From positions 4,965-68,964 of IMG/VR virus record IMGVR_UViG_2974646296_000001: a stretch of 64,000 nt of DNA. One strand, written 5' to 3'. A model generated the notes under the pieces. The model worked only from the letters and a program-made list of their open reading frames with translations, did no database searches and had not been told where the DNA came from. A program made the translations under genes and the position numbers. Origin of the DNA: a virus. Its lineage: Duplodnaviria; Caudoviricetes. Positions 2-64,000 of the stretch are shown piece by piece. How positions within the stretch are numbered: the stretch's first letter is position 1; each line of letters begins with the position of its first letter.

Positions 2-421
2 GCAAGAGAGTCTGGTTATTTAACTAAACAGAAGTTCTCTATTATAAAGTCAAAGCATATGCACAACTACCCAATCAACCTATCTTCAATTAATAAATTC
101 AATTCAACCCCTTTGAGTTTGGATATGGAATTTCTGAAGATGGTTGAAGATGAAATAAGTATTACTGTGGATTCAGAGAAAGAAGTGGAAATGCAAACCA
201 AGAACTTCAATAAGTTTCGATTAGAGACTTATGATGTTTGTTTGGAAATGTATAAAGCTGGTAATCAGTTTTACCTAACTACTTTCTATGATGCCCGTGG
301 ACGTACCTATTCAAGAGGGTATCACATCAACTATCAAGGTAACTCTTACCGTAAAGCAATGATCAACATGATGCCAGCAGACATTAATGAAGACATTGAA
401 CAATACAAGGATTTGTTCTGA
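2..421 (+). CDS. N4-like RNA polymerase II subunit 1 (RNAP1), 5'-truncated by the window edge
   Basis: Frame is open from position 2. T7-like RNAP motif FYDARGRTYSRGYHINYQG; lies just upstream of RNAP2. Confidence 0.9.
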   Translation, partial: ARESGYLTKQKFSIIKSKHMHNYPINLSSINKFNSTPLSLDMEFLKMVEDEISITVDSEKEVEMQTKNFNKFRLETYDVCLEMYKAGNQFYLTTFYDARGRTYSRGYHINYQGNSYRKAMINMMPADINEDIEQYKDLF

Positions 422-636
422 TGCAACTACATAAGACTTACTATGACAGTGTTGATAAGAAACCTGAAGGTATTTGGGTCAGGTTTCAAAATAGAACTTG
501 GATTTATGGGGTATATCGGAATGACTTTGATTGGTGCTTACAAGATTATTTAAACCCAACTCATAAAGAACACCACGACATGAAACCAATACCACGTAAT
601 TGGATTATTGGTACTCAAGGGCAAACTACTAACTAA
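421..636 (+). CDS. Mini-ORF family member (MQLHKTY), between the RNAP subunits
   Basis: N-terminus MQLHKTY, internal IWVRF and C-terminal KPIPR match other family members. Confidence 0.7.
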   Translation: MQLHKTYYDSVDKKPEGIWVRFQNRTWIYGVYRNDFDWCLQDYLNPTHKEHHDMKPIPRNWIIGTQGQTTN

Positions 637-2099: not shown

Positions 2100-3498
2100 A
2101 TGAAATTAATAAATACTTATAAAAGCTTTGATAGTCAAAGACCTTGGTTAATAGAAATTCCTATTACTAATAAAAATTTAATTACTTTAAATAAATTAAA
2201 AATGGGGTTTGATGTATATCATTTTAGAAACACAAACTCACTAGAGTGGTGCGGGGATATAATTAAGAAGGGAAAATAAATGAAATTATTAAATGTGTAC
2301 TACAACAAAGATTCTAGTAGAGATTATCCTTTATTAGAGATACCAAATGGAATTAAATTAATTTCTGTACCTTGTTATACCTATACAGCAATTCAAGAAT
2401 ATACTTTTGCGCGTCCTCAACAAGCTAAACAATGGTGTGGTGATAAATTAACAAGGAAAGATAATGAAATTATTTCCAACTTACAAAAATGATTACGATT
2501 CAGCTATGATTGAATTTGTAACTAATAAATATACATGTACTTTATATTGGGATGATCTTGTAAATCACAATAATGATGTAGGGCATTACAAAACTAGCTA
2601 TTGTAAATTTAGAATAACCAAGGATTCAAATGAAATTACTTAATGTTTGGGTACATCCTACTGAACCTGAAAGTTGGTTCCACTATTTTAAAGTAAATAA
2701 CCAAGTAATAAGATTTATACCTTCACCAAAACATAGAATAAATAATTGCCCTCTTAGAATAATACCAAATCATTTCGTTAAACTAGATAAACAATTAACA
2801 GTTCTTCGAACTGTTTAGTGGAGGTAATTTTATGAAATTATTATCAACTTATTATAACCAAAATGTTGATTTTGCTATTTGGAATGTAACTGGAAGGTAC
2901 GTTAAATTTTAAAGTGAAGATAAAATTTTAACTAGAACTTTGGGTGTAGATAAGGAACGTTGGATATATATTAATAGTTATAAACGTATTCCACGTAAAA
3001 TTAATACCCAACAAGATAGTCTAGATTAACTATATGAAACTAATTAAAAATACTTCTGCTTGGAATAATAATTGTTGGTTTAAAATTAATTTAATTGAAA
3101 CTAAAGCTATAGCTTTCAGTAAATTCTTTAAAAGATTTATTGTATACAGGAAAGTAAATTATGAAGTTAATTAAAAACTCAGCAATCAATAAACCGTTAT
3201 ACCCATAACTATATATGATAGGGTTATCTATCACGGATTACGTTTGGTTCAGACCTTGGAATAAAGATTTTAAAATTAAAACAACAAAAGGAAGTTATTT
3301 ATAAAAATGCAACTTCTACTTATTTATGAAGATAACAAGTACCCTAATGATTATTGTTGGTTACTTAAATATAAGTTATCTATATTTGCCTTAGATACTT
3401 CTGCAAAGAAACTTATAAGTTATTGGGGTATTCATCCATTGCCTACTGACTTTGTTAAAAAACAAAAGGAAATTATTTATAATAATGAAAATAACTAA
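2100..3498 (+). CDS. Cluster A of mini-ORFs: 2100-2279, 2280-2492, 2464-2643, 2630-2818, 2832-3029 (internal stop), 3034-3174, 3161-3304 (internal stop), 3307-3498
   Basis: Hand-translated starts: MKLINTY, MKLLNVY, MKLFPTY, MKLLNVW, MKLLSTY, MKLIKNT, MKLIKNS, MQLLLIY. The first two are clear paralogues (PWLIEIP/PLLEIP, EWCGD/QWCGD). Confidence 0.75.
2832..3029 (+). pseudogene. Mini-ORF with in-frame TAA at 2910-2912
   Basis: Frame continues past the stop to YKRIPRK, the family's IPR motif. Confidence 0.65.
3161..3304 (+). pseudogene. Mini-ORF with in-frame TAA at 3206-3208
   Basis: MKLIKNSAINKPLYP*LYMIGLSITDYVWFRPW...; frame preserved after the stop. Confidence 0.55.
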
Positions 3499-17358: not shown

Positions 17359-18068
17359 ATGCAACTTAAACCAATATATGAAGAAACATTCCTTAAAAAT
17401 ATAATTTATTATTTTAATTTTAATCGAAATTATAATTACACTTTTAACCCTAGGTTAAGATTTTTTACACGACATGATTATATAAAACCATTAAGTGAAT
17501 ACACTTGGTTAAGGAAAGTTAAATGAATTTACTTCCTACCTATACCAATATTAATGCCCCTACTCAAATTTGGTTTGATATTTTACCTCATAGTTATTCT
17601 TTTAAACTTAGTGATTGGTTTCATCTAATTGTTGCATCGCCTTTAAGTGAAACAGAAGGATTTATAAGGATTAAACCAAATGGAATTACTTAATACCTAT
17701 TGGTTAACTTCAAACAACTTACGTGTTTCTTTTGATTATTTAATAGATGGTTTTGATTTTATTCGAGACTCTAAAGAATTCAAAACTTATACCAATGCAG
17801 TAGAAAAAAGACTACAAATTAAAGATTTCCCTGAAGCTAGAAGGATTACAAGAAATTGAAATTGTTACCTGTGTTTAACTTTTCAAGTTCTGAGTTAATT
17901 TCATTTGATTACCCTGATTTAGACATTGGATTAGACTTTAATTTTTATAGATTAAAATTTACGAGTACATCTAATATATCTAACTCAGGTACTTCAATTA
18001 AGGATGCAAAATATTTCAAAAGAGTTATTAAAAATGAAATTAAACCAAGACCAAGAACAAGTACTTAA
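17359..18068 (+). CDS. Cluster C of mini-ORFs: 17359-17526, 17523-17693, 17680-17859, 17856-18068
   Basis: Starts MQLKPIY, MNLLPTY, MELLNTY, (TTG)KLLPVF; each overlaps the next. Confidence 0.75.
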
Positions 18069-19194
18069 AAGCTTAGTTACCTTTATGGCTATGCCTTCAG
18101 CTAAAGATATTATTGTTGATGCACCTGCTGGCTGCGGTAAAGGTTACTTAATTAATTATATTGAAAAGAACAGAAGTAATATCATTGATAGAGTTAAAAT
18201 GGTTTATGAACAATTTAACCAGCAATTTTATTACACAGCTACAACCAATGAAGCAGTGTCTAATTTACCTAGTACAGCTTCTACTATTTATTCCTTTACC
18301 GGTTTAAGACCTAATTACGATGGGTCATTCTTTAAAAAAATTAATTCTAATTTAACAGCTTCAGTAGTTATTATTGATGAAGCTAGTTATATAGACGAAC
18401 AAGCTTATAAAGCTATTCGTAAACAATTACCTAATGCAAAGATTATTTGGGTAATGGATCAATACCAGTTAGCTCCAGTTAAATCTGATGAACCATATAT
18501 ACCTACACTTGGTTTTAAAGTTTTACCAATGAATACTGTTGAACGTAACAAAGGACATATTCAATCAGTGAGTATGTTATTACGTGATGCAGTAGCTAAT
18601 AAAACCAATATTGATTTAACTAGATATACTGATGGTTTATCTGTTGAATTACTTAGCCCAACTGAATTTGATAATAAGATTATTCATGAATACTCTACTA
18701 GACCTAATGAAGAGTTGAAGTATCTTGGCTTTACTAATGAAACTGTAAAGCTATATAACAATGCAATTCATAAGAATGTATTCAAGAATCCATCATTCCC
18801 TCATGTTGGTGCTAGAGCACTAATCAATAAATATAATGACAATATTCGTCATCGTGTAGGTACACCTCTTAATATTCTTTCAGTGAACTATGTAAATGTA
18901 ACTTTGGACTATGGCATAGAAATTACTGAAGTACATTTAGATACTTCATTGGGTAGTCTCATTCTATGTGATTCCAAAGTACCTGCTAAGGTTTATAACC
19001 CTAACAAGTTTCTGTACTCAGAGATTACTTTACCTTATGCATGTACTGTTCATAAGTCCCAAGGACAATCTATAGATACTATCTTTATAGATTTACCAGA
19101 CATTGAAAGATGTTGGGATAAAGAAATGGTACGTAGACTTAGATATGTAGCTTGGTCTAGAGCTATTAATAAGATTTATTTAAAAGGTTATTAA
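18034..19194 (+). CDS. SF1 (Dda/RecD-like) DNA helicase
   Basis: APAGCGKG, IIDEAS, DQYQLAPV, YACTVHKSQGQS, YVAWSRA; start MKLNQDQ at 18034 preferred over 18004. Confidence 0.93.
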   Translation: MKLNQDQEQVLKSLVTFMAMPSAKDIIVDAPAGCGKGYLINYIEKNRSNIIDRVKMVYEQFNQQFYYTATTNEAVSNLPSTASTIYSFTGLRPNYDGSFFKKINSNLTASVVIIDEASYIDEQAYKAIRKQLPNAKIIWVMDQYQLAPVKSDEPYIPTLGFKVLPMNTVERNKGHIQSVSMLLRDAVANKTNIDLTRYTDGLSVELLSPTEFDNKIIHEYSTRPNEELKYLGFTNETVKLYNNAIHKNVFKNPSFPHVGARALINKYNDNIRHRVGTPLNILSVNYVNVTLDYGIEITEVHLDTSLGSLILCDSKVPAKVYNPNKFLYSEITLPYACTVHKSQGQSIDTIFIDLPDIERCWDKEMVRRLRYVAWSRAINKIYLKGY

Positions 19195-54506: not shown

Positions 54507-55189
54507 ATCCAACCCCCCATACAAGGTTTAATGTTTCTATCGTAATCATTAGAATTCTCTGTACCTAGATTAATTTGTTGGGTACATAGCAACTCAAACT
54601 TCTGTAGCATTGTATTAGCTAACATAATATGTTCTTGGGTAGTACCCCCTGAATAAACCCTGTAAGCAACATAAGCTAATAGTAATGGTTTTAAATGTAG
54701 TGGTAAGTACAAAGCAGTATTTGCTTCATCTACTTTTGGATGTTTAGCTTGGTAAATAACAAACAATGCATCACCATCTACAGGTTGTGGTACTTCCAAT
54801 ACATCTATTGCAGGAGTAGCTACTACAGGGCAAGCTGTCCAATCATTCAAACGTATCTCATTACCTTCTTCATCATATACTGATAGAACTCTAATCAAAT
54901 CCCCTGTAAAAGGATAATCCAATACGTAATCAATATATTTATTGTAAGAAGGTAGTTCACCCTGTACTAAAGTATTTTCTACCTTTAACGGGTAAAGTGT
55001 TCTACCCTCAACTTGAATTAAAGTTAGTTCCCGAGTAAGTAACGGAAAACGAGTATACAGTTCAGTTAAACCAATATTAATACAAGCAATCAACTTACGC
55101 TTATTGTTCGCATCTAATGTACCCATGAACCAACCATGTTGTTGAAGTTCACCAATACTTAAATCAGTAATAATCTCATCTAAATCCAT
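54503..55189 (-). CDS. Head-tail adaptor-like protein (N4 gp67-like)
   Basis: LSIGEL, INIGLTELYTRF, DALFVIYQAKHP; position next to TerL. Confidence 0.8.
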   Translation of the reverse strand: MDLDEIITDLSIGELQQHGWFMGTLDANNKRKLIACINIGLTELYTRFPLLTRELTLIQVEGRTLYPLKVENTLVQGELPSYNKYIDYVLDYPFTGDLIRVLSVYDEEGNEIRLNDWTACPVVATPAIDVLEVPQPVDGDALFVIYQAKHPKVDEANTALYLPLHLKPLLLAYVAYRVYSGGTTQEHIMLANTMLQKFELLCTQQINLGTENSNDYDRNIKPCMGGWI

Positions 55190-55196
55190 AGTAACC

Positions 55197-57809
55197 TCAT
55201 ACTATATAAGAAGACATTGCATAAGATTCAGTCTGTACTTCATCTTCCCACAAGCCAGAAGCATCATTATATTTCAATTCAATGCTTTCACTTGGTTTCC
55301 AAATCTTCATTAAACTCAACATAGAAATAGTATCTATAAAGTCATCATGTTTAGATTTAAAACCACTACGTGAAACCAATGATAATTCATTATGAGCTTC
55401 TACCATTGCAGGATGTTCAGACATATCTTCAGGGAAGTATATCATTCTTTGTTTGAACCAAGGTAATACAGTTAAGAATCTAGTGAACTTCTGGTTCGTA
55501 GGTCTTATACCCGGTTTATTATTGTTACCTTCTGAAGCAATATTAAAGAAGATATTCTTATCCATCATCATAGATTTGATAAGAGATACAAACCCACCCT
55601 GTTGACCGGTAACCTCTATACCTACATCAATTGGTTTATATATCTGAACCAACCTAAATAAATCTTCAATAGTTACATCTATGGTTTGTCTCTTACAAAT
55701 ACCGTCAATCCAATAGAGATACCCTTTATTATTTACTGCCCATACAGATATCACACTAAAGTCAGCTTGTTTCTTCTCGCTAGTAGCAAAGTCAGTAGTA
55801 ATGTAAATATTAAAGTTACCTAAGTTTCGGATTACATCCGACCTTACAAAGTATTGGATATCACCTTGCTCAATTAGCTTATCTTCTTCAGACATAATAC
55901 GTAACATTAACTCTTGGTTAAATGCATCCAGTTTATGCAGTCCTTTCATCTTGTTATAGAGTTTTAGAATAGAATCATAATCAAACCGATCTTCCCAACT
56001 ACCTCTAAACTCTTCTCTACTACAAGGAAATGTTTCACATACTGGATATACGTTTACTGCCCAAGCCCCGGATTCAACTGCTTTATACAATGGGTCACTT
56101 GCATTAAATGGCGTACCTGACCAGATTACTTTTCTCTTGTTTGGGTGCAGAGCAAATTCAATAGCATTGTATACGGTCTCTTCAATAGCTTTAATTACTG
56201 TTGGTGAACGTGCATCTTTATCACTAACCAAGTCATCCAATAAAGCTAATACTGGTCGACTGTTGTTTTCACGAGTTCCACGTACACCTGTCTGTGCGCC
56301 ATGACCACTAACTACAAAAGACTTACCTTCTTTATTTATAAACTCCCAACGTATATCTGTGAAACGTTTATCAGGTATATATTGTTGTAAGAATTCACTA
56401 TTATTCCAACGCTTCTCTAAGGATAACCGCATTTTCTTCACACCATTATCTATAGAGTCAGAAACATATAATGCATAAGGGACTGAACCAAGATTAGGTA
56501 ATTCATTAAATATAGCAATGTACCAAATCAAGTATTCTTTCAAGGTCGTATTGTGTGTAACTATAAAAGATTCTGCTAAAAAGGAGTGTGTAATATCATC
56601 AACAGCTATACATTGGGAAGGTTCCAATTCTATTGTAGTGATAGATTTAATAGCTATTCTTCCTTTTTTATTAGGTACCCACCTATTCACTTTACGGGGC
56701 AACCTAAAAATGCATTTATCAGCATAAATGTAAATACGAAAATATGTTTTTTCGTTGCACAACTTAGCCTCAAAACCAAGACTTCTAACTAACCATAATA
56801 CATCATTAGCTAAACCCTTAGACACTGTACAAAAACTGGATGAATTATTGTACACAGTGCCATCGGTGTCCATTAAACCTTGTAGTAGACTCAAACGTTG
56901 TACAGCACTCCCCCACAACAATTCTTGAGGGATTCGTTTATTATATACGTTTGCTGTTCCTACATACTTTTTGATTACTTTTCCAAGACCTTTGAGGGAA
57001 AATCTAACCCCGTTTGGATTCTTAGAATCAAACCGAACACTATTTTCGTCAGCTCCTTGTAGTTCTGATAAAAAAAACTTCAAATCATCTTTATGTGTGT
57101 GAAATCTAGTAAAACCTGTGTATTTATCTATAGAACCATCACCCAAAATACATCCAACAGTATAAGGGTCTAAAGGAAATTCTACAGGGTCTAGATTTAT
57201 ACATTCTATGGTAGGGATGAACCATTTGGACTCATAACCATTTGGATTCCTATCCGACACGTGACGAGTGTATACAACACCTTTATCCAATAATTGATTT
57301 GTTGTTAGCTCAAATTCTGCAAAACCCCCTAGACTTCTTTTGCCTGTTCTACGTTTCTGGACAATGTTTATATGGTCTTCTGAAACTTTTAATTCTCTGC
57401 CATCTTCCAAAATAATTTTATACATTGGTTTGTGGAAAACTTCTGATTTATGGGTAACTTTAGTTTTCTTACCATTTCGAGTAAAAATAGTATCACCCAC
57501 TTTTAAATCGCTTATAGTAATATTTCCGGTTGGCGTGGGTATTTGTGTATCTAAGCTCAAAGCTTTTGCTATACCACGATGGCACATGTTGATAGTATCT
57601 AAACCTTTTTTAACAAAGTTATCCAACATACGTAGATGGACTACTGGTGTTTTGTTTTCAGGATTACCACCTTCAATTAACTTAATTAAGTTAACCATCT
57701 TCACAGCAAATTCTGAAGGTACATAATCGTTGATATCCGAATAATCACAGTTATTCAGATAATCCTCTACTGTCATTGCTACTTTCGTTTTCTCTGGTAA
57801 ATCACTCAT
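55197..57809 (-). CDS. terL: Terminase large subunit containing an intein
   Basis: HRGIAK|TT Walker A, GVRG, LALLDDL, TDFA...ADFS, HDDFID; likely start MSDLP overlaps the terS stop. Confidence 0.95.
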   Translation of the reverse strand: MSDLPEKTKVAMTVEDYLNNCDYSDINDYVPSEFAVKMVNLIKLIEGGNPENKTPVVHLRMLDNFVKKGLDTINMCHRGIAKALSLDTQIPTPTGNITISDLKVGDTIFTRNGKKTKVTHKSEVFHKPMYKIILEDGRELKVSEDHINIVQKRRTGKRSLGGFAEFELTTNQLLDKGVVYTRHVSDRNPNGYESKWFIPTIECINLDPVEFPLDPYTVGCILGDGSIDKYTGFTRFHTHKDDLKFFLSELQGADENSVRFDSKNPNGVRFSLKGLGKVIKKYVGTANVYNKRIPQELLWGSAVQRLSLLQGLMDTDGTVYNNSSSFCTVSKGLANDVLWLVRSLGFEAKLCNEKTYFRIYIYADKCIFRLPRKVNRWVPNKKGRIAIKSITTIELEPSQCIAVDDITHSFLAESFIVTHNTTLKEYLIWYIAIFNELPNLGSVPYALYVSDSIDNGVKKMRLSLEKRWNNSEFLQQYIPDKRFTDIRWEFINKEGKSFVVSGHGAQTGVRGTRENNSRPVLALLDDLVSDKDARSPTVIKAIEETVYNAIEFALHPNKRKVIWSGTPFNASDPLYKAVESGAWAVNVYPVCETFPCSREEFRGSWEDRFDYDSILKLYNKMKGLHKLDAFNQELMLRIMSEEDKLIEQGDIQYFVRSDVIRNLGNFNIYITTDFATSEKKQADFSVISVWAVNNKGYLYWIDGICKRQTIDVTIEDLFRLVQIYKPIDVGIEVTGQQGGFVSLIKSMMMDKNIFFNIASEGNNNKPGIRPTNQKFTRFLTVLPWFKQRMIYFPEDMSEHPAMVEAHNELSLVSRSGFKSKHDDFIDTISMLSLMKIWKPSESIELKYNDASGLWEDEVQTESYAMSSYIV
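56550..57563 (-). mobile_element. Intein (338 aa, Ala1) with LAGLIDADG endonuclease
   Basis: Begins ALSLDTQIPTP, ends FIVTHN with +1 Thr; GCILGDGS and LQGLMDTDG blocks. Confidence 0.93.
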
Positions 57810-58479
57810 CTTCTTTACCACTCGTAATTGCAGCATGGGCTATGTCTTTAGCAGTCATTTCACCACTTTGAACCAATGCTACTTGTTGTTTACTTAGGTT
57901 AGCTAATGCAGCACTCAAATCTGCAATTACACCTGTATCTGTAGTACCAATCTCTACATTTATCTTAGCTGACTCTGGTGCTTTCAACTCTTTCAATAGA
58001 GTAGCAGCAGCTTGTACTTGGTCACGTTCACACTTAGCATTCTCCATTAAGTCAGCTAATCGAGCTATAGACTTATACCGGATAGAAGCATACATGATAT
58101 GGTCAGGAATAAGCGTTTGCTCATAAATAAGAGTAACCAACTTAGTCTTATTGTAGGTACTTGCGTAAGCAGCCATATCTTTATTAGAGATATTTCTATT
58201 TACCATATCCTGTACTCTAGTAGGGAATACCTTTTGGTAAGCTGCCATATTGCTCATACCCATTGTCTTATAGGATACAAACATTACAGCATTGAAATAG
58301 TCATCTAATTTGAATCTACCTTCTTGCAGTACCTTAGAATAAGTAAGAATATTATCTGTATAAACATTAGCCATTTGTGGGTCAGCAATCATCTTGTTCA
58401 AATCATCTACAAATTGCTGAGTAATTCTGCTCTTATGTTGTTTAGGAACTGAATCTCTAAGTTCTTCTACTGTAAGCAT
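57802..58479 (-). CDS. terS: Terminase small subunit (N4 gp69-like)
   Basis: YSKVLQEGRFKLDDY...AVMFVSYK...YNKTKLV...LKAPE. Confidence 0.85.
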   Translation of the reverse strand: MLTVEELRDSVPKQHKSRITQQFVDDLNKMIADPQMANVYTDNILTYSKVLQEGRFKLDDYFNAVMFVSYKTMGMSNMAAYQKVFPTRVQDMVNRNISNKDMAAYASTYNKTKLVTLIYEQTLIPDHIMYASIRYKSIARLADLMENAKCERDQVQAAATLLKELKAPESAKINVEIGTTDTGVIADLSAALANLSKQQVALVQSGEMTAKDIAHAAITSGKEDE

Positions 58480-58529
58480 GTTACACCTTAATAGAATATT
58501 GGGTTGATATAGTTAAGTAAGGATACAAT

Positions 58530-58718
58530 ATGAATGAAATAAAAATCAAACCTTCTAAGATTGGTTCACTTCGAGCTATCGCTCGTTCTGAGGGAGCTGT
58601 AAATGAAGATGGAAAGATATCAGTTAGGTGTATGTAAAGAAAACTAAAAGACCCAAAGACTTCTACAACAGTAAAGAAAAAGATTAACTTTGCATTGAAG
58701 GCAAGAGAAGGGAATTAA
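58530..58718 (+). pseudogene. Small basic protein with an in-frame TAA
   Basis: MNEIKIKPSKIGSLRAIARSEGAVNEDGKISVRCM*RKLKDPKTSTTVKKKINFALKAREGN*. Confidence 0.6.
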
Positions 58719-61411
58719 ATGAAACTAATTAAAACTATTTTAGAAAAAGAAGATATACATTGCTTTAAGCCTACGCGACTTAACAAGTATGACTCAGGTA
58801 TGTTTAATGAATGGGGTTCTAACTATTTACTTGGATTTGTTTATGAAATTAATTAATACAAAATCCATAAGATACATTAAGTTTAAACCCAATAACCAAC
58901 TACGTAAAGATGTGAATTGGGTTTATTCATTTGGTTACCAAATAGGTTACGAACATACAGATTATAGGTTTATATATGAAACTAATTAAAACCAAACATG
59001 TGAAATATTCTTCACCCAAATTCCCAATACCTTTAGTTAACATTGGCGAGGCTTACCAATTATGGGAAAGATACTCTTTAACGGAATTTACTTATGAGAT
59101 TAATTAAAACTCGCCCTTACCAAGGACAACTTAACCTGCACCAACCCAAACGATTAATAAAATATTACGATAATTTTTATGAATTATGGGGTGTTGATTA
59201 CCTGGTGGCATTTAAATATGCAGTTAATTAAAACCAATGTTGAAAAGTACTCTAGTCCTTTATTTAAACCCTATAAGTTAGCACCCCAATTCCAACATGA
59301 ATATGATCTATGGGGTGCTAACTTTGTAGTGGAATTTGAATATGTACCTAACCAAGAATAGATATGCCTTTGGAATAACCAATAGGTATTTCACTAAGAT
59401 AACTAAACATGTAATTGGTGGTTACTGTTTTGATACCTTTGATGGAAGGAGATTGTTTATAAATGACATTACATAAAGTAACTAAACAAACTAAAGTTTA
59501 CACTGAATATACCTATTACGTGTACGGTACTTTTCCGATTGCTTACAATATATTTTTTGAAAGGTTAACCTACTAATGAAACCACTTAAAGATGTTTTAT
59601 CTTTTTGGTACTTAGATAAGTGGTATGTACAAGAATTGTATAAGACACCAGCAAGATACATAAGTTTTAATAAATTTTGGAGTATTGCTGAATTTGATGA
59701 ATTCACCAACCCACAAGACCCATATAGATGGACGGTGAGAAGTAAATGAAATTACTAAACACTTATGAGAATAAAGATTTTAAAGCAAAAGATTATGATA
59801 ATTTAATTTTAAACCACAACAATAAAACTTGGGTTATGTGTGGATTACCTGTAACCACATTTAGTTTAAGAAAAGCATTTTGGGATAAGCATGATTTTCA
59901 ATTATTCACAAACCCTAAAACAACTAACCCTTGGACAATTAGAACCAAATGAAACTATATAAATCAATGGAAGGTACATGGGCACTTTCTTACACAATTA
60001 TATCTATAAATAGAATCTTATTTATAGACAGCCTAGGAGTTTACTACGCATGAAACTAGTACAAACTTACGCAGTATTACCAGACTTAAAAAGGTTAATT
60101 GGATTCAAGTTAGAATATTTAGGTACTTGGTTTACTGTATTTAAATTCGAAATAGAACCTTCTTACAACAGGTATGCACCAGATAATATTATCCCAATAC
60201 CTAGAAGAACTACTTGGAGTGATTTCAGTGAAACTGCATGAACTGGATAAACCAAAAGAGATGATTGGTATATGGAAGTATTACTACTTACCTAAGTACC
60301 GTGTAAGAGTTTACATAAGTGAGTTAATTGGTTCAGTTGGTTTAGATAACTAATATGACTTTACACAAGACAATTCAAAATAAACCAGATGTATTTGTAA
60401 TATACAAAGGAAAATGGATATGGCTCTTATAGAAACATATGACTACAACGGTATAGTGGTGAAAGGTGAGAAACCATACATACCTTACTTGGGTAGATGG
60501 TATACAGGTAATAAACAACTAAGATTATCCTTTAATCCTCACAGCCCTAATGCATTACTAAGAGTATACACATGGTAATACTACCTACGACTAAAGGTAT
60601 ATTTATGAGTAAATTACTTATAGATGTACCTTATAAACTTAATACTTACTTATTTATCCTATGAAACTAGCACACACTTATATACAGAATCTTTTCGCAC
60701 TGAACTTTGTAATCTCAGGTTACCCTTCCACTTTTTATACCAAAGGTAAACTTAAAACATTTTTATATAGTCCTACATCATTCACTGATCAATTCTGTAA
60801 GCCTTACCCTAGATTTACAAAAGAGATGAACCAATGAGATTACTTAAACAAAGAACTAAATATCATACTCAGAAAGAGCCAACATTATTAGTAAAAGTCA
60901 TTAAACCTTTCTATTTATATCATTCCAATTCTGTCACGGTAACATTTAAATATGAGATTAATTAAACACTCTGAACTAATTCCAACTACCACAAGTAAGT
61001 CAAAGTTATCTGCTTACCCTAGGGGCTTTTACTTAATAAACAATTTTAAGATTTATACATATGAGATTAATTAAACCATACAAACAATCCGATAGTCGTA
61101 GTAGTTCAAATATAAAATTGCATTGGGTTCTAAGGAATATTTATACAATCACTATTAGCTACCAATGGAGAGCTTTCTACTATGTACCTAATAAAAACTA
61201 AACAAGACCTTCTTGATAATCGTTGTTTTAGATATGGGTGCGAGTTTTGGGCTTATATAGTAAAAGGAGGCAGATTATTATGAAATTACTAAAGACAACT
61301 AAACTTAAATTTATGTTTACCACCCCCAGTAAGTTAGATAATCCATTTAAGTGTTTATATTGGTTTAGAAGTAATACTGAAGGTTGGGAATTTAAATATG
61401 AAATTAATTAA
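58718..61411 (+). repeat. Junction repeat TATGARRYTAATTAA
   Basis: Copies at about 58718, 58842, 58975, 59093, 59217 (variant), 60951, 61060, 61397; also 3033 and 3160. Confidence 0.85.
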
Positions 61412-61971
61412 ACACTACAAAGATCAACTTAACTTTATTCAATATACTCAAACGTATTTAGCTAAGTATAGTAGTGATATTGGATTTATCCTCGTACTCA
61501 ACTCAGGTAACTATTCTAAGTGGTACTTGAACCAATGAAGCTAACAGATACTTACATAAATAATGGTAACGTTAATCCTAAGACATGTATTTGGTTTAGG
61601 TTTAATAGTTACTACTTAGCTTTTCCTTTTAGAAGTAATACTGCACCAAACCAACTAATAGTAGCTGAAGGATTTGGTTATAGAACTTGGGATTATTGGT
61701 TAGGAGATAAATCAATACTTAAATTAACTAAACAAAAAGGAAAAGAGTTATGCAGTTGATTGAGACTTATGTAAGCAAAAGTAGAAAATCTATTTGGGTA
61801 CCTTATTTAAATAGCGCTTATAGTTCTTGGATAGAAGGTAAAAACTATTTAGATGATTTAGTGACTACAGAAGATTGGTCTATTGGGAATTTTAATACTT
61901 GGGTTTTAGAAGCTAGGGTACATAAACCAAGCAGAAAAGAATGGAAAGAGATAGTTGATAGTCTCGCGTAG
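58719..61971 (+). CDS. Cluster D: 24 chained mini-ORFs (25-74 aa)
   Basis: Starts at 58719, 58843, 58976, 59094, 59218, 59342, 59463, 59576, 59746, 59949, 60050, 60228, 60355, 60420, 60572, 60661, 60834, 60952, 61061, 61182, 61280, 61398, 61535, 61750. Hand-translated; each overlaps or abuts the next. Confidence 0.8.
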
Positions 61972-62109
61972 GAAATACTTAAATAATTTTAGAAACGACC
62001 TTAATGTAATTTTACTAAATTAAGTATAGCCGTAGTACTCCCATTTCCAGCTCGCAAAATCCAAGCATACCCCCCCGGTACCTCAGAGCTAGCTATACCA
62101 AACCTCTAC

Positions 62110-62126
62110 ATATTCCTTCGGAATAT
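62110..62126 (+). promoter_or_regulatory. Candidate vRNAP hairpin promoter
   Basis: ATATTCC-TTC-GGAATAT; template strand gives a C-GAA-G triloop, matching the N4 C-GDA-G promoter hairpin. Confidence 0.65.
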
Positions 62127-62168
62127 CTGTGGAAATTAATCCATTCATTTAACTATAGGAACTTCACC

Positions 62169-62390
62169 ATGAAACATTTACTAGCAGCACTAACTCTAAC
62201 CATCACTACTCTGTTCTCAGTATTCACTACTCTACTTGAGTGCATTGGTTTGCTATCTACTTCAGCTAAGAACGTAGCTCACGTAGTAGAAGATGCATCA
62301 GCTACATTCCGTATGGAAGAGAAACTGTTGAATGCTGATAAAATCAAGAAGCTTCAACAAGAACTATCAGCTAAAGATATCGAACTATAA
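62169..62390 (+). CDS. Early protein with hydrophobic N-terminus
   Basis: AGGA RBS; between a hairpin promoter and a terminator. Confidence 0.7.
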   Translation: MKHLLAALTLTITTLFSVFTTLLECIGLLSTSAKNVAHVVEDASATFRMEEKLLNADKIKKLQQELSAKDIEL

Positions 62391-62398
62391 CTATATAA

Positions 62399-62430
62399 CT
62401 AAAGGACTCTTCGGAGTCCTTTAGTTCTTT
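62399..62430 (+). terminator. Rho-independent terminator
   Basis: CTAAAGGACTC-TTCG-GAGTCCTTTAG plus T run. Confidence 0.85.
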
Positions 62431-62446
62431 TATTCCTTCGGAATAA
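62430..62446 (+). promoter_or_regulatory. Candidate vRNAP hairpin promoter
   Basis: TTATTCC-TTC-GGAATAA; same core as 62110. Confidence 0.65.
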
Positions 62447-62602
62447 TTATGGATAAACGGTTTACGTCAATGTCCAAGGTGAATGTTCCTATCAACATTC
62501 CTGCGGTGAGCAGCTACTCACCACTTATTTTTTTTTTTTACACAATACACATTACACATTACACATTACAGAGATAGTTTATCTAACTTTAAGAGGAACC
62601 AA

Positions 62603-62917
62603 ATGACATTACATAAAACTGTACCATACAATTCATTTAAGTTACCTCATGTACTTAAATGGGAATATCTCCATGAGATTTACTGTTATGATTACAGAAC
62701 CAAGGAACTGTACTAAATGAAACTACTACATACACTCGCAAAGTATCCTAACCCAAGAGATGCAATAGTAATTATTAATGGATACAGTTATAAGTACGTC
62801 TTGAATTATAACGGGGGTTATAAATACCTAGATAACCGTAAACTATCTAGTACTGATTGGTTAGTTAAATTTAAACCAACGACTAAAGGATTTGTTTGGA
62901 TAGATAGTATGTATTAG
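62603..62917 (+). CDS. Cluster E mini-ORFs: 62603-62716 (MTLHKTV) and 62717-62917 (MKLLHTL)
   Basis: Family N-termini; GAGG RBS before the first. Confidence 0.7.
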
Positions 62918-63447
62918 TTAAACAACATAGATGCTTCAATGATTTCTTCATAACTCTTAGTTGCCATTACTTCTTCCCAAGAAGATAAACCAAAATGATT
63001 CATAATTGATTTGCGTTTGCTTTCAACACTCGAAAACTCCTCAGCAGTAGTAACTAATCTGCACATCTCCTTGCCAACATAGAATACTGTTATCTTTGCT
63101 TTAGTAGTTGGCTGGGTAAATGTAATTCGTTTTAACCAGCCACTATTCACCAGTGCTAGTCGAGTTTTCTTAGTCTTACTTACACTCCAACCTAGTGCTT
63201 TAGCCACTAGAGCATCAGCAAAGAAGTCGAACTTAGGTGTCTTAACCTTACGGAAATAGTAAGTCATTAGTACTACAGCAGCATCATTAACTTCTTCTGA
63301 TAATTCAGACATCTCTTTGATAGTTAAATATGCTGTAGTACCTCCTAAAGGTTTATCTTTGGGGATGAATCTTACTTCCCGATCAACCATATAATCATAA
63401 CCCAATAAGAATTCACGTTGGGTAGGTAATTCAGTAACATTATTCAT
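62914..63447 (-). CDS. Winged-helix DNA-binding protein (Rep/initiator-like)
   Basis: DALVAKALGWSVSKTKKTRLALVNSGWLKR is HTH-like; AAGGA RBS. Confidence 0.6.
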   Translation of the reverse strand: MNNVTELPTQREFLLGYDYMVDREVRFIPKDKPLGGTTAYLTIKEMSELSEEVNDAAVVLMTYYFRKVKTPKFDFFADALVAKALGWSVSKTKKTRLALVNSGWLKRITFTQPTTKAKITVFYVGKEMCRLVTTAEEFSSVESKRKSIMNHFGLSSWEEVMATKSYEEIIEASMLFN

Positions 63448-63519
63448 ATTGTTTTCCTTTACTACTAGTCTATGACCCTACTATGTAGATTCCAATACGG
63501 AATGTCAACACCAGTTTAT

Positions 63520-63828
63520 AACCCTAATCTGGTCTATCAAGTGTGTCCAATACATGTTTATATAGGGGTGATATATAAAAAGACCTAATTTGGTCTACAC
63601 TCACATTGAAAAGACCTAATCTGGGCTACTGTATACTAAAAAAGACCTGATTTGGTCTCATTAAAATTAGCGCTGAAGCCTTATATACCAAGGGCTACAA
63701 GCTTTTTAAGCTGAAAAAAATACCCTATATAATAAAATATAAAGTAACGTTACACGAATCGTGTAAACCAAAGCTCTTAATTACACAAATCATGTATCTT
63801 TACCTAAGTCGTTACGTAAATCGTGTAA
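63520..63828. repeat. Two sets of phased palindromes (iteron/operator-like)
   Basis: AGACC-N6-GGTCT-type at 63520, 63581, 63612, 63643; TTACAC-N5-GTGTAA-type at 63750, 63781, 63812. Confidence 0.8.
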
Positions 63829-64000
63829 CACCTAAATTAGCTCAAACCCTTGTGCCACAAGGCTTCAGGGGGTGTTTGAACCAAAAGGTACCCTTATAGT
63901 ATTTATATAATATACGTTGTATTTACCTGTATAAATATACATGCCTCTAAAACTCTCTGTATGCTTCTATATGAAGAGATAGTAGAGAGATAGGGGATAG

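What the first reader, a model, noticed from the sequence alone, without database searches (positions are those of the whole stretch)
58719..61971. Gap-free array of 24 translationally chained, hypervariable mini-proteins (lead candidate for a new system)
Seen: 3.25 kb fully tiled by ORFs of 25-74 aa, of which the ORF track shows only a few. Almost all start M-x-L-[I/L/H]-[K/E/N]-T. Middles are highly divergent and aromatic-rich, yet paralogy is visible (EWGSNYLLGFVYEIN, LWGVDYLVAFKYAVN, LWGANFVVEFEYVPN; RWTVRSK/PWTIRTK). 22 of the 24 have no internal stop and an overlap or abutment on both sides (the other two are the array ends), which suggests selection for coding. The array lies between terS and the candidate early promoters. 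Inference: an expandable library of small effectors (anti-defence, decoys or host takeover) that diversifies by duplication and cassette exchange. With the satellites the family has about 40 members.
Basis: partly seen in the sequence, partly recalled or inferred. Interest (0 to 1): 0.92.

Follow-up and report, generated by a model that had tools for sequence, protein, structure and literature searches.

The report
Mini-protein gene array, N4-like vibriophage
The 3.25-kb block at the right end of this N4-like cholera phage is a real chain of 24 tiny overlapping genes that close relatives gain, lose and replace as whole units at a shared stop/start joint; it is the Vibrio version of the unexplained small-gene clusters already known next to the terminal repeat of other N4-like phages, and its function is still untested.

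Summary
Observation confirmed. The window is the last 64 kb of a 68,964-bp N4-like Vibrio cholerae podophage record (the size published for phiVchO139-I). On the + strand, 58719-61971 is tiled by 24 ATG-ORFs of 25-74 aa. ORF coverage is 99.97%, against 20% in shuffles. Coding is supported by dN/dS of 0.34 in the called frame (0.81 and 1.03 in shifted frames), by codon usage, and by SD-like sites at the called starts.

The array stops about 56 nt before the right terminal repeat, which carries the hairpin early promoters. Three phages about 91% identical hold 24, 23 and 23 units, but only 11 of 39 unit types are common to all three. All 16 rearrangement breakpoints lie within 23 nt of a unit start, in the conserved stop/start joint.

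"One family of 40" is only partly true. About 45 ORFs share the N-terminal M-x-L-(I/L)-x-T motif, but demonstrable paralogy is limited to subgroups.

No known family or fold matches. The kind is known: LUZ7 has 29 small ORFans at the same locus, transcribed mid-infection. This scan has also noted right-end paralog arrays in other N4-like phages. Function is inferred, not shown: accessory host-directed proteins. I rate it a new variant of a known kind, of moderate interest.

The parts
58530..58718 (+). Conserved 62-aa leader gene of the operon. Here it is cut by a nonsense codon at 58635-58637. Its TAA stop abuts the ATG of unit 1.
   Evidence: It is intact (62 aa) in phi 1, 12VC501, BUCT194, PhiImVa-1, pVco-5 and L014. 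The alignment shows CGA in phi 1 and 12VC501 (AGA in BUCT194) where the window has TAA. It matches PHROG 25798, function unknown.
58719..58856 (+). Unit 1, 45 aa, short type (MKLIKT...YEIN). Found only in this phage among the three compared.
58843..58989 (+). Unit 2, 48 aa (MKLINT...YETN), 14-nt overlap with unit 1. Found only in this phage.
58976..59107 (+). Unit 3, 43 aa, short type, 14-nt overlap.
59094..59231 (+). Unit 4, 45 aa, short type, 14-nt overlap. This unit was the one folded.
   Evidence: four beta strands, pLDDT 73
59218..59361 (+). Unit 5, 47 aa, short type, 14-nt overlap.
59342..59476 (+). Unit 6, 44 aa (MYLTKN...), 20-nt overlap. Present in all three phages.
   Evidence: dN/dS 0.10 against 12VC501
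59463..59576 (+). Unit 7, 37 aa (MTLHKV...), with a good SD-like site. Present in all three phages.
59576..59749 (+). Unit 8, 57 aa (...RWTVRSK). It is absent from 12VC501. In phi 1 it is split by a stop codon and has a longer N-terminus.
59746..59952 (+). Unit 9, 68 aa (MKLLNTY...PWTIRTK), a paralogue of unit 8 and of the satellites at 2100 and 2280. Absent from phi 1.
59949..60053 (+). Unit 10, 34 aa, ATGA overlap.
60050..60241 (+). Unit 11, 63 aa (MKLVQTY...), ATGA overlap.
60261..60353 (+). Unit 12, 30 aa (or 59 aa from 60174). It lacks the N-terminal motif. No counterpart was found among the ATG-ORFs of phi 1.
60355..60432 (+). Unit 13, 25 aa (MTLHKT...). Present and conserved in all three phages.
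60420..60578 (+). Unit 14, 52 aa (MALIETY...), strongly constrained.
   Evidence: dN/dS 0.06-0.07
60572..60664 (+). Unit 15, 30 aa, hydrophobic, without the motif. The protein is identical in all three phages.
   Evidence: Only synonymous changes: 2 against phi 1, 3 against 12VC501. GRAVY 1.03.
60661..60837 (+). Unit 16, 58 aa (MKLAHTY...), fast-diverging.
60834..60965 (+). Unit 17, 43 aa, short type. Absent from 12VC501.
60952..61074 (+). Unit 18, 40 aa (MRLIKH...YEIN). Found only in this phage.
61061..61201 (+). Unit 19, 46 aa (MRLIKP...).
61182..61283 (+). Unit 20, 33 aa (MYLIKT...), 20-nt overlap.
61280..61411 (+). Unit 21, 43 aa, short type, with a strong SD-like site. It shares a 16-nt identical stretch with unit 23.
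   Evidence: (family D11)
61398..61538 (+). Unit 22, 46 aa (MKLIKH...).
61535..61759 (+). Unit 23, 74 aa, long type (MKLTDTY...IWF...).
61750..61971 (+). Unit 24, 73 aa, long type. In phi 1 its body is replaced by three other long-type units, and in 12VC501 by four.
60944..60970 (+). Reference copy of the 27-nt stop/start joint, whose core is TATGARATTAATTAAA. In one frame the joint reads ...Y-E-I-N-stop. In the other frame it reads M-K/R-L-I-K.
   Evidence: Six copies in register (family D1). All 16 rearrangement breakpoints lie at such joints.
62027..64000 (.). Right direct terminal repeat. The start is approximate. It ends in GATAGGGGATAG, the physical 3' end of the genome.
   Evidence: The motif is at 63989-64000. 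The repeat length of at least 1,974 bp comes from PMC3670811.
62112..62124 (+). Hairpin ATTCC-TTC-GGAAT, a candidate virion-RNA-polymerase early promoter, downstream of the array.
   Evidence: Exact copies at 62112 and 62432. A third copy lies at about base 1260 of the record.
62432..62444 (+). Second copy of the hairpin promoter, directly after a terminator-like hairpin at 62397-62426.
62603..62917 (+). Two motif-bearing ORFs inside the terminal repeat: MTLHKT... (37 aa) and MKLLHT... (66 aa).
421..636 (+).
2100..3498 (+). Seven motif-bearing ORFs start at 2100, 2280, 2464, 2630, 2832, 3034 and 3307.
17359..17859 (+). Three chained satellite members lying before the large ORF at 18004-19194.

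Best explanation
Shown.
- The block is a protein-coding, polycistronic array of 24 mini-genes at the right end of the unique sequence of an N4-like (Schitoviridae, Pacinivirus) Vibrio cholerae phage.
- It starts behind a conserved 62-aa leader gene and stops just before the right terminal repeat.
- It has no terminator-like site on the + strand and fewer sigma-70-like sites than chance.
- Consecutive cistrons overlap, by ATGA or by a 14-nt ATGARATTAATTAA. Many units carry a weak SD-like site inside the preceding cistron.
- The same 15-27-nt joint ends one ORF (...Y-E-I-N-stop) and begins the next (M-K-L-I-K-T).
- Among close relatives whole units are inserted, deleted or replaced, and the breaks lie at this joint. 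Unit order is kept.

Inferred.
- The units are read by translational coupling and re-initiation.
- The joint acts as a portable recombination site. Every body placed behind it inherits the N-terminal motif, which would explain why otherwise unrelated bodies share it.
- The products are small, basic, aromatic-rich, mostly beta-strand proteins made in the early to middle phase. They serve as dispensable, fast-turning-over accessory proteins aimed at host components: takeover or counter-defence.
- By analogy with LUZ7, transcription is most likely by the phage RNAPII in the middle phase.
For: - Coding: coverage 99.97% against 20% in shuffles. dN/dS is 0.34 in the called frame against 0.81 and 1.03 in shifted frames.
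- Codon usage: the frame model favours the called frame in 21 of 24 units, against 24 of 120 decoy ORFs (p = 4e-9).
- Start sites: SD-like matches of 4 nt or more precede 15 of 24 called starts, against 11 of 45 other ATGs in the array.
- Motif: second codon positions are conserved and Leu and Thr codons vary synonymously, which points to protein-level constraint.
- Operon shape: no terminator-like site on the + strand within the array; 12 promoter-like sites against 28.7 expected.
- Turnover: 39 unit types in three phages, 11 shared by all and 19 private.
- Breakpoints: 16 of 16 lie within 23 nt of a unit start; mean distance 10 nt against 41 nt at random, p <= 1e-5.
- Faster divergence: shared array blocks are 77-91% identical, against 91-97% in terL and terS.
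- Persistence of the design: it recurs in the genera Varunavirus (BUCT194) and Vicoquintavirus (pVco-5), in the unassigned PhiImVa-1, and in two metagenomic contigs.
- Early context of other members: motif-bearing ORFs sit in the terminal repeat behind hairpin promoters and in the first 5 kb of the record.
- Analogue: the LUZ7 cluster is at the same locus and is covered by mid-infection transcripts (PMC3715699, PMC9163698).
Against: - There are no expression or proteomic data for this phage.
- No homologue, domain or fold hints at a target.
- No ortholog pair has dN/dS above 1 (maximum 0.74), so positive selection is not shown.
- Several units look decayed. Unit 8 is split in phi 1. A satellite is truncated relative to a 68-aa relative. 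The leader gene carries a nonsense codon here.
- The codon-usage margin is much weaker than for core genes: 0.10 against 0.40 per codon.
- BLAST block ends are drawn a few bases into the shared motif. The exact breakpoint positions are therefore biased, though their falling at unit boundaries is not.
- The promoter of the array was not found.
Confidence: 0.6

Rival explanations
1. ORFan nursery. The array is mostly selectively neutral or selfish. Junction-mediated unequal recombination keeps copying and reshuffling short ORFs. Weak purifying selection reflects only the need to keep ribosomes moving through a coupled operon toward a few useful members (units 13-15). Most units would have no function of their own.
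For: Constraint is very uneven. Units 13-15 have dN/dS of 0-0.13, while units 3, 4, 10, 11, 12 and 16 reach 0.54-0.74 in at least one comparison. Nineteen of 39 unit types are private to one phage. There are split and truncated members. The coding signal is weak relative to core genes. No relatives exist beyond this phage group among 1.84 billion representatives.
Against: Pooled dN/dS of 0.34 is well below the shifted-frame controls. Trp is threefold enriched, which AT-rich drift would not give. SD-like sites are enriched at the called starts. Unit number is held at 23-24 in the three close phages. The design has persisted across at least three genera.
Confidence: 0.2
2. Phage-directed nucleic-acid-binding proteins. 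The small, basic, aromatic-rich beta proteins bind DNA or RNA and act in the phage's own replication or transcription programme. This was suggested for the LUZ7 cluster because it is a middle-phase transcript.
For: Median pI 9.4 and 18% aromatic residues. The authors' suggestion for LUZ7 is in PMC9163698.
Against: Core replication or transcription factors are not expected to differ in 28 of 39 types among phages 91% identical. No match to any known nucleic-acid-binding fold.
Confidence: 0.1
3. Tagged cargo. The shared N-terminal hexapeptide is an address label that sends otherwise unrelated mini-proteins to one place, for example into the capsid for co-ejection with the DNA. The parallel is the capsid-targeting sequence shared by the polymorphic internal proteins of T-even phages (from my own knowledge, not checked here).
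For: Short and long members share only the first 13 profile columns. The motif is conserved at the protein level. The virion gel analysis of this phage could not see 3-9 kDa proteins, so it does not exclude them.
Against: The array is on the strand opposite the late structural genes. Other members sit behind early hairpin promoters. AlphaFold places residues 2-9 as the first strand of the strand array predicted for the unit, not as a free tag. About 45 cargo species would be unprecedented. No protease site or late promoter was identified.
Confidence: 0.06
4. RNA or DNA signal rather than proteins. The repeated joint is a regulatory or translational-ramp element, and the ORFs and the N-terminal motif are by-products.
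For: The motif is A/T-rich and follows the start codon directly. Leu is nearly always TTA or CTA. The same sequence is also the recombination joint.
Against: Conservation peaks at second codon positions, including the C of Thr, while third positions are free. The bodies between the joints show frame-specific purifying selection. No Rfam family or tRNA was found. Promoter-like sites are depleted.
Confidence: 0.04

Closest known systems
[quoted passage not shown]
   Same: Same locus: after the N4 gp69-like gene, on the opposite strand, running up to the right terminal repeat. Same size class: 40-75 aa. Cistrons abut or overlap tightly, often by ATGA. No database similarity and unknown function. 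The LUZ7 cluster is also a paralogous expansion: 17 plus 4 of 29 genes link by BLAST.
   Different: No sequence relationship. The LUZ7 proteins carry a different internal motif (around KY-x-KE) and no common N-terminal hexapeptide. They lack the 14-nt stop/start joint. The Vibrio units are shorter, and the one confident model is all beta.
N4 gp70/gp71/gp72 and the G7C-type right-end paralog arrays
   Same: Rightward small genes between the gp69-like gene and the right end of an N4-like genome. They are expanded into tandem paralogs in some lineages.
   Different: Those proteins are 95-130 aa, in 2-7 copies, separated by intergenic spacers. The Vibrio profiles give bit scores near zero against N4 gp70-72.
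PeSL-mediated modular shuffling in the hyperplastic regions of T4-type phages (PMC2839356, PMC4122927)
   Same: Short conserved sequences repeated at the boundaries of small non-essential ORFan genes serve as crossover points. Close relatives therefore differ by insertion, deletion and replacement of whole genes.
   Different: PeSLs are non-coding promoter-plus-terminator cassettes, so each gene is its own transcription unit. Here the joint is coding (stop of one ORF, start and first codons of the next), without promoter or terminator features. The genes form one coupled operon. Mini-circles were not looked for.
Polymorphic internal-protein locus of T-even phages with a shared N-terminal capsid-targeting sequence
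   Same: Otherwise unrelated small basic proteins in a hypervariable locus share a short N-terminal sequence.
   Different: Those are late, packaged, protease-processed proteins. Timing, packaging and processing are unknown here, and the gene context argues for early or middle expression.
Host-takeover module of Bacillus phage SPO1 (24 small genes in the terminal redundancy; recalled from memory, not checked)
   Same: About two dozen small, tightly packed, non-structural genes at a genome end of a virulent phage.
   Different: The SPO1 genes are not a repeat family with a common joint. They lie inside the terminal repeat and are read from host-type early promoters.

Membership tests
N4-like 'extra module' of small ORFan genes next to the terminal repeat (LUZ7 type) | Lies directly upstream of the right direct terminal repeat, downstream of and divergent from the gp69-like (terS) gene | tested here: met
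   terS-like gene at 57802-58479 on the - strand; array at 58719-61971 on the + strand. The record ends in the published end motif, and the repeat of at least 1,974 bp starts near 62027.
N4-like 'extra module' of small ORFan genes next to the terminal repeat (LUZ7 type) | Many small genes without similarity to characterised proteins | tested here: met
   No Pfam family. Only unknown-function PHROGs built from these same phages. 12 hits among 1.84 billion representatives and 19 among 5.8 billion proteins, all close relatives.
N4-like 'extra module' of small ORFan genes next to the terminal repeat (LUZ7 type) | Sequence homology to the LUZ7 gp87-gp115 proteins | tested here: not met
   The best BLAST E-value is 0.027. 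Profile E-values are 0.047 or worse in a 29-sequence set. The resemblance is of kind and locus, not of family.
N4-like 'extra module' of small ORFan genes next to the terminal repeat (LUZ7 type) | Transcribed in the middle phase | not testable with these tools
   Three RNA-seq runs carrying the species label of the best DNA holders held no reads on this stretch. One sediment metatranscriptome holds contigs of a relative, but DNA carry-over cannot be excluded.
N4 gp70/gp71 family | Sequence similarity to N4 gp70, gp71 or gp72 | tested here: not met
   hmmsearch bit scores range from -2.4 to 1.5.
PeSL-type modular shuffling (T4-type hyperplastic regions) | Conserved short repeats at gene boundaries | tested here: met
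   A 27-nt joint in six copies, plus looser copies at most unit starts.
PeSL-type modular shuffling (T4-type hyperplastic regions) | Indel and replacement breakpoints between close relatives fall in the repeats | tested here: met
   16 of 16 breakpoints lie within 23 nt of a unit start, p <= 1e-5.
PeSL-type modular shuffling (T4-type hyperplastic regions) | The repeat is a sigma-70 early promoter plus a stem-loop terminator | tested here: not met
   No + strand terminator-like site in the array, and promoter-like sites below expectation. The joint is coding.
T-even internal proteins with capsid-targeting sequence | Shared N-terminal peptide on otherwise unrelated small proteins | tested here: inconclusive
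   A shared motif is present. It is predicted to be a strand of the folded unit.
T-even internal proteins with capsid-targeting sequence | Late expression, packaging into virions, proteolytic removal of the tag | not testable with these tools
   The published virion gel (8-18% SDS-PAGE, four bands identified) could not detect 3-9 kDa proteins.
Anti-defence (anti-CRISPR-like) gene loci | Homology to a known anti-defence protein, or an adjacent Aca-type HTH regulator in the same operon | tested here: not met
No family hit. The operon contains only the mini-ORFs. No dedicated anti-defence library was available.

The most novel reading that the evidence does not exclude
The stop/start joint may be a coding recombination cassette site. 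It would be a protein-coding counterpart of T4 PeSLs or integron attC sites, letting N4-like vibriophages exchange mini-gene bodies in frame. Every acquired body would then be automatically expressed in a coupled operon and would automatically receive the same N-terminal beta-strand 'handle'. That handle would dock a changing repertoire of about 45 effectors onto one common partner: a host hub protein, or the phage's own ejection or transcription machinery.
Probability: 0.15. Interest if true: 0.8.

Novelty: new variant of a known kind. Interest (0 to 1): 0.55.

Why it matters
Clusters of tiny ORFan genes next to the terminal repeats are a recurrent, unexplained feature of N4-like phages. These phages include candidates for therapy against Pseudomonas, Vibrio and Acinetobacter.

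This Vibrio array is an unusually clean case. About 45 motif-bearing mini-genes make up roughly a tenth of the genome. Most are missing from some published annotations: 12VC501 has 8 CDS features for 23 units.

Three near-identical phages show whole-unit turnover at a defined coding joint. That gives a concrete, testable mechanism for how such accessory repertoires are built. It also gives a ready panel of natural gain and loss variants for linking single units to host range or defence escape in V. cholerae.

It further warns that gene callers with length cut-offs miss a large share of the coding content of these phages.

Tried and rejected
- Pfam and PHROGs on 20 units and neighbours: only unknown-function PHROGs made from these same phages.
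- Profile search of 1.84 billion representatives with the long-type alignment: 12 hits, all near relatives. Word-indexed searches: 4 and 19 hits.
- tblastn of a unit against 50,697 phage records: only phi 1 and 12VC501, because the query is too short for this method.
- ESM Atlas: no usable hit for two units.
- AlphaFold of the short type: four strands, pLDDT 73. Foldseek against PDB gave nothing below E = 1. Against viral models it found only family members in vibriophages.
- AlphaFold of the long type: pLDDT 64, with the other four models below 50. This was too poor to search with.
- hhalign of short against long type: only 13 N-terminal columns aligned, probability 17%. A single superfamily is therefore not demonstrated.
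- Iterated HMM of the short type against all window ORFs did not grow beyond its seeds at E < 1e-3, although nearly all sub-threshold hits were other units.
- Expression: three RNA-seq runs carrying the species label of the best DNA holders had no reads on the stretch, so they are no test. One sediment metatranscriptome holds contigs of a related array at depth 9-13, similar to the flanking terS and terminal-repeat parts, so DNA carry-over cannot be excluded.
- Promoter of the array: none recognised in the 50-nt gap before the leader gene. Its conserved motif has no convincing second copy in the window. There is no third hairpin promoter upstream of the array.
- Rfam and tRNA scans: nothing.
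- A polyprotein made by serial frameshifting was rejected. Every unit has its own ATG at the conserved joint, and the motif restarts there.
Full report
IDENTITY AND PLACE

The window is bases 4965-68964 of a 68,964-base virus record. That length equals the non-redundant genome size published for Vibrio cholerae O139 phage phiVchO139-I. The record ends in GATAGGGGATAG, the motif reported at the physical 3' end (PMC3670811).

The nearest records available are Vibrio phages phi 1 and 12VC501 (Schitoviridae, Pacinivirus). They are about 91% identical over 55000-62500.

The paper places a direct terminal repeat of at least 1,974 bp at the 3' end of the JA1 assembly and reports similar repeats for phiVchO139-I. 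The repeat therefore starts near window base 62027. The array ends at 61971.

Upstream lie terL (55197-57836, - strand, with an intein) and the gp69-like terS gene (57802-58479, - strand). The two exact hairpins ATTCC-TTC-GGAAT at 62112 and 62432 are inside the repeat, downstream of the array. A third copy sits near base 1260 of the record. In the virion the array is therefore the last unique DNA before the right repeat. The hairpin promoters cannot drive it.

Yes. Twenty-four ATG-ORFs of 25-74 aa tile 58719-61971 on the + strand.
- ATG-ORFs of 25 aa or more cover 99.97% of the bases. In 200 shuffles the mean is 20% and the maximum 36%. The opposite strand gives 14%.
- Twenty-one of 23 junctions overlap. 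Eight overlap by the same 14 nt (ATGARATTAATTAA) and seven by ATGA.
- One junction has a 1-nt spacer. One has a 19-nt gap, or a 68-nt overlap if the upstream ATG at 60174 is used.
M-x-L fits 21 of 24.
- The first unit abuts the stop codon of a conserved 62-aa gene that leads the operon in all relatives. In this phage that gene carries a nonsense codon.

ARE THE UNITS GENES?

Four independent lines say so.
1. For 27 ortholog pairs against phi 1 and 12VC501, pooled dN/dS is 0.34 in the called frame. On the same alignments it is 0.81 and 1.03 in the two shifted frames. Units 13-15 are under strong constraint: dN/dS 0-0.13, and unit 15 has only synonymous changes. No pair exceeds 0.74.
2. A codon-frame model trained on the phage's large genes, with stop codons excluded, favours the called frame in 21 of 24 units. 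It does so in only 24 of 120 decoy ORFs inside large genes (Mann-Whitney p = 4e-9). The margin is smaller than for core genes: 0.10 against 0.40 per codon.
3. SD-like matches of 4 nt or more precede 15 of 24 called starts, against 11 of 45 other ATGs in the array. Matches of 5 nt or more are 6 of 24 against 0 of 45.
4. In the conserved N-terminal codons the information sits at second positions: T of Leu and Ile, A of Lys/Asn/Glu, C of Thr. Leu varies between TTA and CTA, and the third base of Thr is free. That is the signature of amino-acid conservation, not DNA conservation.

There is no + strand terminator-like site inside the array, and promoter-like sites are fewer than chance: 12 against 28.7 +/- 5.3. 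No Rfam family or tRNA is present. The simplest reading is one long polycistronic message read by translational coupling.

ONE FAMILY?

Only in part. BLAST links three groups:
- six 43-47-aa units (MKLIKT...L...Y..W...F.YEIN);
- the two 73-74-aa units;
- units 8 and 9, together with the satellites at 2100 and 2280.

Twelve short-type members of this genome align with invariant Met1, Leu3, Leu21 and Tyr42.

A profile of the short type pulls mostly other units as its best sub-threshold hits but does not grow at E < 1e-3. Profile-profile comparison of the short and long types aligns only the first 13 columns, at probability 17%.

Counting by motif gives 24 array units, 14 further ORFs in the window and 7 in the first 4,964 bases of the record. 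That is about 45 in all. What unites them demonstrably is the N-terminal hexapeptide, not the whole protein.

The products are basic (median pI 9.4). They are twice as aromatic as the large proteins, with Trp threefold enriched. Trp is encoded by TGG, so AT-rich drift would not produce that.

AlphaFold gives the short type four beta strands at pLDDT 73, with residues 2-9 as the first strand. The long-type model is unreliable.

COMPARISON WITH RELATIVES

This is the most informative result. The three Pacinivirus genomes carry 24, 23 and 23 units in collinear order. At 50% identity or more these are 39 unit types: 11 in all three phages, 9 in two, and 19 in one only.

Nucleotide alignments break the arrays into blocks. 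All 16 block ends lie within 23 nt of a unit start codon. The mean distance is 10 nt, against 41 nt for random positions (p <= 1e-5). Examples:
- Units 1-2 are present only here and are bounded by two copies of ATGAAACTAATTAAAAC.
- Unit 8 is missing from 12VC501, and unit 9 from phi 1.
- Units 17-18 are missing from 12VC501, between two ATGAGATTA... joints.
- 12VC501 has an extra unit inserted exactly at the start of unit 13.
- The body of unit 24 is replaced by three (phi 1) or four (12VC501) other long-type units.

BLAST extends a few bases into the shared motif. That biases the exact coordinates, but not the fact that homology breaks at unit boundaries.

Where units are shared they are 77-91% identical, against 91-97% for terL and terS next door. 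A 16-nt identical patch shared by units 21 and 23 hints at short conversion tracts.

The same design occurs in several more distant relatives whose terS is only 61-66% identical:
- BUCT194 (Varunavirus) and PhiImVa-1;
- pVco-5 (Vicoquintavirus), with about 25-30 units;
- two metagenomic viral contigs (L012 and L014).

In each case the leader gene is followed by chained MKLIKT...YE(I/T)N units with the 14-nt joint. The unit bodies are entirely different. The joint and the architecture are therefore old, while the contents are young.

MECHANISM

Shown:
- The block is a coding, coupled multi-cistron array.
- Units are inserted, deleted and replaced whole, with breaks at a conserved joint.
- Divergence is faster than in the flanking genes.
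- The array lies directly before the right terminal repeat.

Inferred:
- The joint encodes the stop of one ORF and the start plus first five codons of the next. I infer that it serves as the homology patch for unequal or inter-phage recombination. Any body moved this way stays in frame, stays coupled, and inherits the N-terminal motif. This explains why unrelated bodies share that motif. It also explains why the C-terminal YEIN is fixed: it is the other reading frame of MKLIK.
- By analogy with LUZ7, transcription is most likely by phage RNAPII in the middle phase. I could not find the promoter.
- Function is inferred only from pattern: small, non-enzymatic, dispensable-looking proteins with high turnover between near-identical phages, and other members sitting behind early hairpin promoters. 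That is the profile of host-directed accessory proteins (takeover or counter-defence).
- Nothing identifies a target. Positive selection is not demonstrated, and some units are visibly decaying.

WHAT IS KNOWN

The kind is not new.
- Putzeys et al. found this rightmost ORFan region (gp87-gp115) covered by mid-infection transcripts (PMC9163698).
- Garcia-Heredia et al. state that N4-like phages differ by extra clusters of small genes next to the right or left terminal repeat (PMC3821669).

I found that the LUZ7 cluster is itself a paralogous expansion: 17 plus 4 of 29 genes link by BLAST. It uses ATGA overlaps and is unrelated to the Vibrio units. N4 gp70-72 are also unrelated.

Earlier notes of this scan describe right-end paralog arrays in several other N4-like phages. 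One describes a mini-protein array with reused gene boundaries. The same locus in different Schitoviridae lineages therefore hosts independent tandem expansions of lineage-specific small proteins.

The closest mechanistic analogue is PeSL-mediated modular shuffling in T4-type hyperplastic regions (PMC2839356, PMC4122927). There the boundary repeat is a non-coding promoter-terminator cassette. Here it is coding.

VERDICT

The effector function is untested. The 'new system' label is too strong.

What appears new:
- the coding stop/start joint as the unit boundary and crossover point;
- the size of the motif-sharing set, about 45 ORFs in a 69-kb genome;
- the documented unit-wise turnover.

I rate it a new variant of a known kind, with interest 0.55.

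Noticed in passing
window 58530-58718: The conserved 62-aa gene that leads the array operon has an in-frame TAA at 58635-58637, where phi 1 and 12VC501 read CGA and BUCT194 reads AGA. The rest of the frame is intact. It is either a recent nonsense mutation or a sequencing error.
   Followed up: partly
window 55197-57836 (- strand): terL is 879 aa with an intein here and is also long (2,613 nt) in 12VC501. In phi 1 the gene is 1,599 nt without the insertion. The intein is reported in PMC3670811.
   Followed up: partly
window 62397-62444, and L006 about 1223-1275: Twice, a GC-rich terminator-like hairpin is followed directly by the ATTCC-TTC-GGAAT promoter hairpin. This gives a terminator-promoter tandem arrangement in the early region.
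   Followed up: no
window 62528-62566: A run of 12 T is followed by three and a half copies of ACACATT, between the second hairpin promoter and the MTLHKT ORF.
   Followed up: no
window 61364-61379 and 61628-61643: A 16-nt stretch is identical in units 21 and 23 and encodes F-R-S-N-T in both. The units are otherwise unrelated. It may be a short conversion tract.
   Followed up: no
window 60572-60664: Unit 15 is a hydrophobic 30-aa peptide without the family motif. The protein is identical in all three phages, with only synonymous changes. It may be a small membrane peptide with a function of its own.
   Followed up: partly
L007 6699-12346 (LUZ7 gp87-gp115): The published '29 small ORFans' of LUZ7 form a paralogous family. 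Seventeen link in one BLAST cluster and four in another. I did not find this stated in the passages of the papers I read.
   Followed up: partly
L011 (reverse strand, first 650 nt beyond terS): A metagenomic relative with terS 67% identical carries three chained ORFs of about 40 aa at the same locus. They appear to belong to a different small family (...HFKYR...Y...G.KLM.W).
   Followed up: no
L008 1203-1838 (pVco-5): A gene annotated as PagP-like (lipid A acylation protein) sits inside the pVco-5 mini-gene array. Its annotated ORF starts with a family-like N-terminal stretch.
   Followed up: no
L006 4219-4326: This motif-bearing ORF is 35 aa here, but a close relative in the protein library is 68 aa (P0015). 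The copy in this phage is therefore truncated.
   Followed up: partly
window 58300-62600 against run X12: A sediment metatranscriptome assembly holds contigs of a related phage. Its array lacks unit 8 and units 17-18 and differs at other unit boundaries.
   Followed up: partly
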